Below, piece after piece: positions 6,753 to 61,199 of a stretch of DNA of 64,000 nt (position 1 is the first letter of the stretch; each line of letters opens with the position of its first letter). Position numbers and translations under genes: made by a program. The notes under the pieces were generated by a model that was not told where the DNA came from, made no database searches, and saw only the letters and a list, made by a program, of their open reading frames with translations. This DNA comes from Octopus vulgaris (Eukaryota): positions 87,358,001 through 87,422,000 of the forward strand of contig OX597824.1 in NCBI GenBank assembly GCA_951406725.2, given 5' to 3'.

Positions 6753-7186
6753 TTTTCAGGACATTTATAAGGAAAGAGATATAGTTACAGCTATATATAT
6801 ATATATACATGATGATGATGATATATATATATATATATAGCTGTAAGACTATATCTCTTTCCTTATAAATGTCCTGAAAACTGAAGGACGTTTATAAGGA
6901 AAGAGATAGTCTTACAGCTATATATATATATATATATATATGATGATGATAATGATGATGATGATGATATATGTAGCTGTAAGACTATATCTCCTTATAT
7001 ATGTCCTTGAAAACTCCTCACAGCCTTGGCTTTGTTATCTGTTCCTGTCTAATATATATACGCAGGCTAATACATGACCCACATTAAACTCTTCACTCGT
7101 ATCATGATCGAACCAGGAATTTAACTATGGTCTGTCATTAGCACTTGCTTAGCATTACCTGCCACTGTTTGGGTCTTCTAGATACC

Positions 7187-9227: not shown

Positions 9228-9520
9228 AATGTGAGGTATACTTGCCATCTCAATATGGCTAACCACTAAGGGTGGGTGTTACTGTAGCTTGTAGCCCCAG
9301 GAGAACATCGTCTCCAGCTGGCTTTAGGCACACTTTCTGTGCCCTTATGGTATTTGCAAAGGGAGGATGACCTCCCTTTGCAATCCCTTTGCAAATACCA
9401 TAAGGGCACAGAAAGTGTGCCTAAAGCCAGCTGGAGACGATGATCTCCTGGGGCTACAAGCTACAGTAACACCCACCCTTAGTGGTTAGCCATATTGAGA
9501 TGGCTAGTATACCTTACATT
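9228..9520. repeat. Near-perfect fold-back inverted repeat (137-bp arms, 19-bp spacer)
   Basis: 9228-9364 is the reverse complement of 9384-9520 with 3 mismatches by eye. It lies between (TA)n tracts. Confidence 0.95.
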
Positions 9521-25644: not shown

Positions 25645-25732
25645 TACTCAGAGTTTCACATGAATATTCGTCGGACAGTTGTGATAATACCATTGCAACT
25701 GTCAGACAAACAGTCATGTGAAACTCTGAGTA
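25645..25732. repeat. Fold-back hairpin containing a hammerhead-like motif (Penelope-like remnant)
   Basis: TACTCAGAGTTTCACATGA...TCATGTGAAACTCTGAGTA. The minus strand reads CTGT-CCGACGA...GAAA-CTCTGAG-TA. Confidence 0.6.
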
Positions 25733-25977
25733 AATAAACTGGGAAGATTATTTTTGGAGATTCAACAATTATCACATTACTCTACCTTTGCTATTGAGTA
25801 CTATCTTTTCCATCTTCTTTTGCAATTGTGTTTACTTATGTGCGTATACACACACACACACACATACACACACACACATATATATATAATAATAATATGA
25901 GGGAATATTATTCCAAACTTACAGGGAAAAATTCAATTTAGAAATACTAAATCAAATTTCCCAAAATATAATATATA

Positions 25978-26280
25978 TATATATAAATTAGAAAAAAACC
26001 CACCTTTTATTAATTCAATAATGAAAAATTAAATTATGCCATTTAGAAAAATTACCTGTTATAGAAAGATAAAACATATAACGATGATTAAGTAATGTGC
26101 AAAATAATAAATAAAATGTATATCTACCAAAGATATACATTTTATTTATTATTTTGCTCATCGTTATATGTTTTATCTTATATTTAATCTTTCTATAATA
26201 TGTAATTTTTCTAAATGGTATAATTTAATTTTTCATTATTGAATTGATAAAAGGTGGTTTTTTTCTAACTTGTATATATA
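25978..26280. repeat. AT-rich fold-back inverted repeat of about 300 bp
   Basis: Centre GCAAAATAATAAATAAAATGTATATCT-ACCAA-AGATATACATTTTATTTATTATTTTGC, with outer arms pairing with indels. Related sequence lies at 7230-7460. Confidence 0.85.
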
Positions 26281-39473: not shown

Positions 39474-39691
39474 ATACACAAAATTTAGAGGACTGATCAC
39501 TAAAAATGGACAGCCTATATGCTAGATATAGATGTCAAAATTGCCATTTTCCACGAAGAATGTGTTCTCAAGAAAAATCTCAGCTGAGTTTTTGCTGACT
39601 TTTTTCGTTTTTTCTTGAGAACACATTCTTCATGGTAAATGGCGATTTTGATGTCCATTTTTAGTGGTCAGTCCTCTAAATTTTGTATGTA
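39474..39691. repeat. Fold-back inverted repeat next to (TA)n
   Basis: CAAAATTTAGAGGACTGATCACTAAAAATGGACA pairs with TGTCCATTTTTAGTGGTCAGTCCTCTAAATTTTG. GAAGAATGTGTTCTCAAGAAAAA pairs with TTTTTCTTGAGAACACATTCTTC. Confidence 0.85.
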
Positions 39692-56819: not shown

Positions 56820-57163
56820 CATGTAGGAGTGGCTGTGTGGTAAGTAGCTTGCTTACCAACCACATGGTTCCGGGTTCAGTCCCACTGCATGGCACCTTGG
56901 GCATGTGTCTTCTACTATAGCCTCGGGCTGACCAAAGCCTTGTGAGTGGATTTGGTAGACGGAAACTGAAAGAAGCCAGTCATATATATGTATGTGTGTG
57001 TGTTTGTCCCCGCCAACATTGCTTGACAACCGATGCTGATGTGTTTGTGTCTCCCATAACTTAGCAGTTTGGCAAAAGCGACCGATAAAATAAGTACTAG
57101 GCTTACAAAGAATAAGTCCGGGGGTCGATTTGCTCGACTAAAGGCAGTGCTCCAGCCTGGCCA
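56820..57163 (+). mobile_element. SINE family B
   Basis: Colinear with the other B copies. Confidence 0.85.
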
Positions 57164-57212: not shown

Positions 57213-57251
57213 GTATATATATGTGTGTGTGTGTATATATACACATATATA

Positions 57252-57287
<36 letters not shown>

Positions 57288-57288
<1 letters not shown>

Positions 57289-57372
57289 TTTATTTAAAGC
57301 AGCAGAAAATTCTACAAAACCTGTTACTCAGAGTAACAGGTTTTGTAGAATTTTCTGCTGCTTTAAATAAAG
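57288..57372. repeat. Perfect palindrome (42-bp arms, 1-nt centre at 57330) at the end of a Penelope-like remnant
   Basis: The arms are exact reverse complements. Downstream 57375-57440 resembles 25775-25840. Confidence 0.95.
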
Positions 57373-58066
57373 CATATTACTCTACCACTGGTATTTGAGT
57401 ACTCTTTTTTTCCACCTTGTTTCACATTTATGTGTTTACTCCGATATATATATATATATATATGCACACATACACACATACACACACACACACACACACG
57501 TACATATATATACACATATATAATAAGTGAAGAAATGAGTTTCAAAAGTATTACATTTATTCCATGGTATACAATTGTATCAACATTGTGTGGGTGACAA
57601 ACCAAATATCACGTATGAAGACATGGATGCGAATAACGATATGGTCACATCCATTACATAACGCATAGCACTTAATGACCTCCACAATCATTTAATCATA
57701 ACCAAAAGAATGATTATCTATGTTCCTACCGGAGAAATTCTCCATTATACAAATTCAATTAATTGCTGCTTGGGCGAGTGCTGGCCGAGGTAAATGCCTA
57801 GGCTGTCTGTTCCCCCTTCTTACTCGCTGGATATCCCTCCATCCGTCCATCTATGCATCCATATGTATGTACAAATATGCATACATACATACATGTGTGT
57901 ATGTATGTGTGTACGTGTGTCAATTAGATTCAGTCAGCAATCATGGAATCATGGTATCAACCAGTACTCATTCATTGTCCATCCATACTTGAAATGTTTT
58001 CCTCACCAGGTTAAGCAGTCCAAGGAATTACATGAAATGAATGAGTAAATATATATATGCATGTAC

Positions 58067-60922: not shown

Positions 60923-61105
60923 AATTATTCAGTAGCCATGATAAAACTGCGAGTTTCGGATGTCGAGGTGGAAATCCACGTTCCCTTTATTTAACAGTCA
61001 TTTTCATAGCATTTTTTTCAATGGCCGGATAACTGAAGAGATGGCAGCTTGGATTTCCACTCCGACATCTGAGACTCGGAGTTTTATCATGGCTACCGAA
61101 TAATT
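60923..61105. repeat. Fold-back inverted repeat (arms of about 55 bp) of a Penelope-like terminal repeat
   Basis: AATTATTCAGTAGCCATGATAAAACTGCGAGTTTCGGATGTCG...GTGGAAATCCA pairs with TGGATTTCCAC...CGACATCTGAGACTCGGAGTTTTATCATGGCTACCGAATAATT. Confidence 0.85.
61028..61088 (+). ncRNA. Putative type I hammerhead ribozyme, probably inactivated (GAAA to GAGA)
   Basis: Stem I GATAA/TTATC, core CTGAAGA, stem II GATG/CATC, GAGA, stem III ACTC-G-GAGT and triplet GTT. The opposite arm retains CCGAAACTC. Confidence 0.6.
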
Positions 61106-61199
61106 GTCACATATTATATTTACAGATAAATTCCTCTATTTACATAATATCGTGGTCTCTTTCATTCTTTTGATGTCTTACCATTTCTATCAATATATA

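What the first reader, a model, noticed from the sequence alone, without database searches (positions are those of the whole stretch)
57288..57445. Perfect palindrome centred exactly on hammerhead stem III
Seen: 42-bp perfect arms have the centre ACTC-A-GAGT, the same near-palindrome that forms stem III (GAAA-CTCTGAG-TA) in the related copy at 25645-25732. The catalytic 5' half is replaced by an inverted copy of the downstream sequence, and the element sits in (TA)n. Inference: the self-complementary ribozyme helix acts as a snap-back or template-switch point, linking ribozyme structure to palindrome formation. This is the best candidate for an undescribed mechanism in the window.
Basis: partly seen in the sequence, partly recalled or inferred. 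Interest (0 to 1): 0.72.

Follow-up and report, generated by a model that had tools for sequence, protein, structure and literature searches.

The report
Head-to-head Penelope stub, minor join site
This mirror-image DNA is one of over two thousand head-to-head stubs of a Penelope-like jumping gene; only about 2 in 100 are mirrored at the ribozyme's helix III, likely because that short palindrome lets two new DNA ends pair during insertion, not because the ribozyme drives it.

Summary
The palindrome is real: 42-bp perfect arms, one-base centre on hammerhead helix III, a 71-nt tail on one side, in (TA)n. It is a stub of a young Hydra-clade Penelope-like element (PLE); 61 of 63 scored parent ORFs are unbroken. 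Head-to-head PLE ends with one tail are published, and this scan has noted them repeatedly in this genome. Helix III is the centre in 26 of 1,441 stubs (1.8%) and in 77 of 1,827 (4.2%) in a second hammerhead family. It is a true local hot spot (25-fold), but other short microhomologies are too (10- to 13-fold). The dominant centre lies about 36 nt upstream, at a sharp wall at the 5' base of helix I (1,144 loci against 42). Few arms end at the cleavage site. Best reading: two cDNAs, primed from both cut DNA ends, run to the RNA's probable start or stop early, and are joined by microhomology. Helix III is simply the longest internal micro-palindrome. Unexplained: none of 42 ORF-complete copies that reach the wall stops there, hinting at two template pools.

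The parts
57250..57287 (.). (TA)n target, left side (start approximate)
   Evidence: nearly all copies printed have (TA)n at this end
57288..57329 (-). Inverted, 5'-truncated, tail-less pLTR arm; its outer end is the element's fixed short 3' end (AAATAAAG)
57326..57334 (.). Junction: the 4+1+4 palindrome of hammerhead helix III, the microhomology shared by both arms
57330..57372 (+). Direct, 5'-truncated pLTR arm: 3' half of the hammerhead (helix III 3' strand; predicted cut after GUA at 57335; helix I 3' strand 57336-57350). Core, helix II and GAA are missing, so it is predicted inactive
57373..57443 (+). 71-nt tail, ending at the element's fixed long 3' end; in intact elements it runs on into a 66-nt leader and the ORF start
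57444..57465 (.). (TA)n target, right side

Best explanation
The element is a short head-to-head insertion of a Hydra-clade Penelope-like retrotransposon end in a TA repeat, likely made when both cut DNA ends primed reverse transcription at the element's two fixed start points and the two truncated cDNA ends were joined through the short helix III palindrome. Shown: the parent, the two fixed outer ends, the scatter of centres, excess microhomology at junctions, and a wall at the 5' base of helix I. Inferred: twin priming, joining at insertion time, and that the wall is the 5' end of a capped RNA. The ribozyme matters only indirectly: helix III is palindromic (in PLE hammerheads thought to allow dimer folding) and so offers the longest internal microhomology. 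Cleavage is not needed.
For: Parent: 61 of 63 scored matches are unbroken ORFs; one checked is 710 aa with RWK, DKT, YRDDG, CxCx5C and a GIY-YIG-like motif; 19 ORFs differ by 0.5% on average. The 3' ends seen fall at two points, after AAATAAAG or after TACTCCGG, as for the two RT start sites and two-strand extension shown in vitro for a lizard PLE (PMC11167929). The same layout occurs at kilobase scale (L176: 1,085-bp inverted arm). Microhomology of 4 nt or more at 11 of 54 junctions, against 3.9% in blunt-join simulations (highest 16.7% in 500 runs). Enrichment rises with microhomology length: 25-fold for helix III, 13-fold for a 4-nt and 10-fold for a 3-nt overlap. Of 46 wall-zone junctions, the tail-less arm reaches the wall in 12, the tailed arm in 10, both in 7; 6 are symmetric and 11 other. 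Fold-back of one tailed cDNA cannot give the first or third class. The centre base at helix III is A in 18 and T in 8, as a T-T mismatch between two annealed ends allows; fold-back of the tailed strand predicts A only. HHR mutants still insert in vitro (PMC11167929).
Against: 0 of 42 ORF-complete copies that reach the wall stop at it (55 of 60 loci scored), which a single RNA starting there does not explain. The arms share subfamily alleles (113 of 115 at one site, 61 of 65 at another; background mismatch 2.3%), which fits fold-back as well as twin priming on one RNA. Short stubs are commoner in the older subfamily (26 of 53 under 125 nt against 17 of 96 in the youngest, p=1e-4; helix III centres 2 of 53 and 0 of 96), which later central deletion would also give. 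The A:T split leans to A (p=0.08). No RNA start was measured; contigs cannot show one.
Confidence: 0.6

Rival explanations
1. Later collapse: stubs insert as longer palindromes centred at the wall and afterwards lose their centres by deletion between short repeats. The two helix III copies are near-direct 9-nt repeats, so deletion between them leaves this structure.
For: The short-stub share and helix III centres rise from the youngest to the oldest subfamily (37 exact loci in the older type, 5 in the younger types). It predicts both A and T centres. Instability of long palindromes is recalled knowledge, not from a call.
Against: Within each subfamily, length does not correlate with tail divergence (rho 0.12-0.13, n.s.). 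9 of 13 helix III-centred copies have identical arms over the 22 nt compared. The youngest subfamily already has scattered, short junctions.
Confidence: 0.2
2. Snap-back or self-priming: one cDNA (or an antisense template) folds back at a self-complementary stretch such as helix III or helix I and is extended on itself, then cut at the short end.
For: Arms are allele-identical. Some junctions use helix I complementarity (L057, L079) or carry short templated inserts (L083, L096). Self-priming was proposed for PLE junction palindromes (PMC3846280). cDNA snap-back is documented for R2 (PMC11371274).
Against: Zero- and one-base loops cannot fold back directly. It does not give junctions where the tail-less arm is the longer one or both arms reach the wall (19 of 46), nor T centres (8 of 26).
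Confidence: 0.15
3. Ribozyme-specific mechanism: folding, dimer formation or cleavage of the hammerhead sets the centre at helix III.
For: Helix III is a hot spot in two families. Its 9-mer forms a predicted homoduplex (-7.4 kcal/mol), so two RNAs paired there could bring two cDNA ends together.
Against: Only 1.8-4.2% of centres. The share is higher in the family with the longer palindrome (6+1+6 against 4+1+4), as plain microhomology predicts. No peak at the cleavage site, and both arms here extend past it.
Confidence: 0.05

Closest known systems
Hydra clade of C-terminal EN+ Penelope-like elements (Craig et al. 2021, PMC8557442), including Hydra-1_Obim of Octopus bimaculoides
   Same: RWK, DKT and CxCx5C motifs, no cysteines inside the GIY-YIG-like motif, hammerhead at the 3' end, (TA)n target. 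The nucleotide record listed just before Hydra-1_Obim in the supplement ends in nearly the same hammerhead core and helix III (seen by eye).
   Different: A different family from Hydra-1_Obim: its hammerhead sequence differs, and its consensus is 2,507 bp with 'no pLTR' noted, against a 3,357-nt unit with pLTR and tail here. No tree was built.
PLE insertions with an inverted 5'-truncated pLTR, one tail and junction palindromes (Arkhipova et al. 2013, PMC3846280; Craig et al. 2021)
   Same: Head-to-head layout, tail on one side, overlap or palindrome at the inverted junction, microhomology-mediated joins.
   Different: The passages read give single examples and propose self-priming. Here the centres are counted over thousands of copies, show a wall, and favour two cDNAs. 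The tail is 71 nt rather than 30-40.
PAc (Poseidon, Anolis) in vitro mechanism (Frangieh et al. 2024, PMC11167929)
   Same: Two internal RT start sites define the tail; both strands are cut and extended; AT-rich target; ribozyme cleavage dispensable.
   Different: Different clade. There the ORF starts inside the hammerhead; here it starts 66 nt after the tail. The parts read do not treat the 5' junction.
L1 twin priming (as described in PMC2912911)
   Same: Two target ends prime on the RNA and the two cDNAs anneal by microhomology at the inversion junction.
   Different: In L1 the second priming is at a variable internal site and the segments do not overlap. Here both start points are fixed 71 nt apart and copy the same stretch, which gives a palindrome.

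Membership tests
EN+ Penelope-like element | Single ORF with RT and C-terminal GIY-YIG endonuclease linked to this pLTR | tested here: met
   710-aa ORF flanked by this sequence, with YRDDG and GVVY...YTG motifs. Motif-level only: no informative Pfam hit for two ORF pieces or five homologues, no PDB sequence hit, fold not collected.
EN+ Penelope-like element | Partial tandems forming pLTRs | tested here: met
   49 of 55 scored ORF copies have a direct upstream partial copy, 35-3,356 nt long.
EN+ Penelope-like element | Optional tail, two 3' end points | tested here: met
   143 of 147 units have the tail on one side, 2 on both, 2 on neither (most were selected for having a tail).
EN+ Penelope-like element | Adjacent inverted 5'-truncated copy | tested here: met
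   1,441 plus 791 pattern matches (two-tailed loci count twice); kilobase example L176.
EN+ Penelope-like element | Target-site duplication | tested here: inconclusive
   Hidden in (TA)n.
Hydra clade | RWK, DKT, CxCx5C linker, no CCHH cysteines in the GIY-YIG core, later CxxC | tested here: met
   against the definition read.
Hydra clade | (TA)n insertion and hammerhead present | tested here: met
Hydra clade | Generally under 3 kb | tested here: not met
   Unit is 3,357 nt with a long 3' UTR; the paper gives this as a tendency, not a rule.
Hydra clade | Placement in the RT phylogeny | not tested
   No tree with reference Hydra proteins was built.
Type I hammerhead (family sequence) | CUGANGA and GAAA core, three helices, NUH site, palindromic helix III | tested here: met
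   Motif and constrained fold; extended helix I in the free fold (z = -0.61, not significant). U4 is C in some subfamilies, and the first helix II pair is mismatched in others. No Rfam hit.
Type I hammerhead (this copy) | Catalytic core present | tested here: not met
   Core and helix II are absent on both strands.
Type I hammerhead (family sequence) | Self-cleavage | not testable with these tools
   Needs an assay.

The most novel reading that the evidence does not exclude
The junction census records two RNA templates of one PLE. A capped linear RNA starting at an initiator-like CC|ATT at the base of helix I gives strong-stop-like cDNAs from both cut ends, joined into short palindromes. A second template without that end (tandem read-through RNA, or a circle made by dimeric hammerhead cleavage through the helix III palindrome) gives the ORF-complete partial tandems. 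The ribozyme would then switch the element from making stubs to making live copies.
Probability: 0.25. Interest if true: 0.62.

Novelty: new member of a known kind. Interest (0 to 1): 0.3.

Why it matters
As given, little: it is one stub among thousands in a published architecture, and the proposed ribozyme-driven mechanism explains at most a few percent of centres. The by-product matters more. How PLEs make inverted ends, and what their hammerheads do, are named open questions (PMC8557442, PMC11167929). This young family, with dozens of intact ORFs and thousands of near-identical stubs, gives a junction spectrum that separates twin priming from self-priming and predicts an RNA start site to the base.

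Tried and rejected
Rfam scans gave no hammerhead hit. Pfam and PDB sequence searches did not name the ORF. A structure prediction of the parent ORF was still unfinished after six polls, so no fold evidence is used. Read support for this locus: no RNA holder listed on record and only contigs available; none spans the palindrome. Presumed-RNA contigs laid on an intact element show a depth step near the wall, but genomic copy number steps there too, so it was not used as evidence for a start site; one run holds three opposite-strand joints, none at helix III. Cleavage-site run-off rejected as a main route: 2 of 150 arm ends, 1 of 55 ORF copies near it. Spread from one palindromic master rejected: helix III centres occur in three subfamilies and with both centre bases. 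Two different RNAs from a mixed pool rejected: arms agree at diagnostic sites. A spliced template (lead from e1-10340866) was not seen here: stubs match the intact element without a gap and keep the bases 5' of the possible acceptor. A cap-derived extra base was only weakly testable: 7 of 11 arms ending at ATTCTAG are preceded by G, but that G can come from the other arm. A plain structural stop of RT at the wall is disfavoured by 0 of 42 stops in ORF-complete copies. The ACAGCTGT family was not tested; its three window sites share no obvious flanks. Assembly artefact is unlikely given many loci with independent flanks and fixed ends.

Full report
Observation. The window has a perfect 42-bp inverted repeat, 57288-57329 and 57331-57372, around one A. 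A 71-nt unpaired segment follows (57373-57443) and (TA)n lies on both sides. The window is C11:87358001-87422000 of a 2.8-Gb genome.

What it is. The 30 best genomic matches to the right arm and tail (40 of 372 candidates scored) show what is missing here: helix I 5' strand, CYGATGA, a short helix II and GAAA, ahead of CTC-A-GAG-TA and the helix I 3' strand. By eye 21 of the 30 carry an inverted copy upstream. Its outer end is nearly always the same point and lacks the tail, while the centre varies; only the window's own copy is centred on helix III. Walking upstream led to L176, which holds RT and GIY-YIG-like frames and a 1,085-bp inverted arm in the same layout. A homologue (P0001) found 63 genomic matches, 61 without a stop. 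The intact unit is 3,357 nt: tail, 66-nt leader, 710-aa ORF, long 3' UTR, hammerhead, and an end at one of two fixed points. Its motifs match the Hydra clade as defined in PMC8557442.

Outer-anchor patterns gave 1,441 matches for the older subfamilies and 791 for the youngest, with gaps up to 200 nt; longer insertions are not counted and two-tailed loci count twice. All 77 matches of 92-104 nt were listed; 26 are centred on helix III by eye, two of them a tandem pair. That is 1.8% of 1,441. In the youngest subfamily 0 of 96 listed loci have that length (4 of 100 rows dropped as duplicates or a spurious match). Exact inner patterns give 37 plus 5 helix III-centred loci, 254 with up to 40 nt between two helix III copies, and 1,144 centred just 5' of helix I. 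These patterns differ somewhat in stringency. The ACTCGGAGT family is a second hammerhead family with 1,827 head-to-head loci, 77 of them (4.2%) centred on helix III, none among the first 50 listed. Helix III is still a real hot spot: 10 of 728 possible end pairs in that length bin give this product, so 1.1 of 77 are expected and 26 seen. A 4-nt overlap gives 7 against 0.5 and a 3-nt overlap 4 against 0.4. Across 88 unselected loci (90 of the 100 listed were fetched, 2 dropped as duplicates; 13 more dropped for indels or complex joins), 11 of 54 junctions without inserts have 4 nt or more of overlap against 3.9% simulated.

The wall. Of 150 arm ends, 57 fall 75-84 nt from the outer end, 19 at 83-84, none at 85-94 and 7 beyond; 2 fall at the predicted cleavage site. 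Positions 83-84 are the start of (A)TTCTAG, the 5' base of the extended helix I, inside CCATTCT, which fits the initiator consensus YYANWYY (recalled). CCATT stands at the like place in the 25690 relative and in one Hydra record of the 2021 supplement. In D. virilis Penelope the pLTR holds the start site (PMC8557442 section 10), and its intron ends at the 5' end of helix I (PMC4209133). One junction class, with two CTAG and a central A or T (5 of 50 rows, none of the perfect AATT form), fits two ends each carrying one extra C, as a cap would give; this is weak. Against a single RNA starting there: of 55 ORF-linked copies scored, 13 end before the wall, 42 pass it and none stops at it; 5 end at the tail start.

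Mechanism. In vitro, a PLE protein cuts and extends both strands, starts at two internal sites that bound the tail, and does not need ribozyme cleavage (PMC11167929). Two cDNAs from the two target ends would copy the same stretch and meet head to head; any self-complementary stretch can then pair the ends. The junction classes fit this: tail-less arm to the wall 12, tailed arm 10, both 7, symmetric 6, other 11, and both A (18) and T (8) at the helix III centre. Fold-back of one tailed cDNA cannot give all of these, although some junctions show short fold-back inserts. Arms agree at subfamily sites, so both come from one source. Later collapse remains open, because short stubs are commoner in the older subfamily, though not in the more diverged copies within a subfamily.

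What is known. Inverted truncated pLTRs with one tail and junction palindromes are described (PMC3846280, PMC8557442), as is palindromic helix III in PLE hammerheads (PMC4209133). Six paper searches listed no paper counting junction centres or reporting such a wall; the library lacks most subscription papers, among them the 2006 and 2008 PLE papers. Seen: PMC11167929 parts 1-2 of 4; PMC4209133 parts 1-2 of 4; PMC3846280, PMC11371274 and PMC2912911 passages; PMC8557442 passages, section 10 and two supplement look-ups; 10.64898/2026.07.22.740005 abstract and two passages (its supplements are closed and were not seen). Earlier notes of this scan reach the same reading for other families in this genome; they are unchecked and are not counted as support.

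Verdict. Observation confirmed; interpretation partly supported; new member of a known kind; interest 0.30.

Noticed in passing
window 60931-61180: Head-to-head insertion of a second hammerhead family (long helix II, GAAA mutated in the right arm), centred 5' of the core; 1,827 such loci in the genome.
   Followed up: partly
window 25645-25840: Old diverged head-to-head relative with two helix III copies, a degenerate core in the right arm and a recognisable tail.
   Followed up: partly
L196-L255 (e.g. G000:C1:194227291-194229417): At least 61 unbroken Hydra-type ORFs; 19 compared differ by 0.5% on average, so the family is very young and probably active.
   Followed up: partly
L196-L255, upstream partial copies: 5' ends cluster at the tail start (5 of 55) and at a T-run 205-215 nt from the tail end (6 of 55); none at the wall seen in short stubs.
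   Followed up: partly
window 9250-9500: Long inverted repeat (59-bp perfect core, extending to about 115 bp) with a nested small hairpin at its centre; no similarity to this family found.
   Followed up: no
window 6835-7020, 26099-26157, 39555-39631: Further inverted repeats with 18-27-bp perfect arms; the first is TA-flanked and partly repeated downstream.
   Followed up: no
G000:C5:123934359-123934632 (L043, L044): Two helix III-centred stubs in direct tandem 176 bp apart, separated by a short TA run.
   Followed up: no
L124, L162/L163, L256/L257: A few stubs carry the tail on both arms, i.e. both ends at the long 3' point.
   Followed up: no
window 56824-56980: A SINE copy (recalled as an octopus SINE) 300 bp upstream; the same SINE often lies beside these TA targets in other loci.
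   Followed up: no
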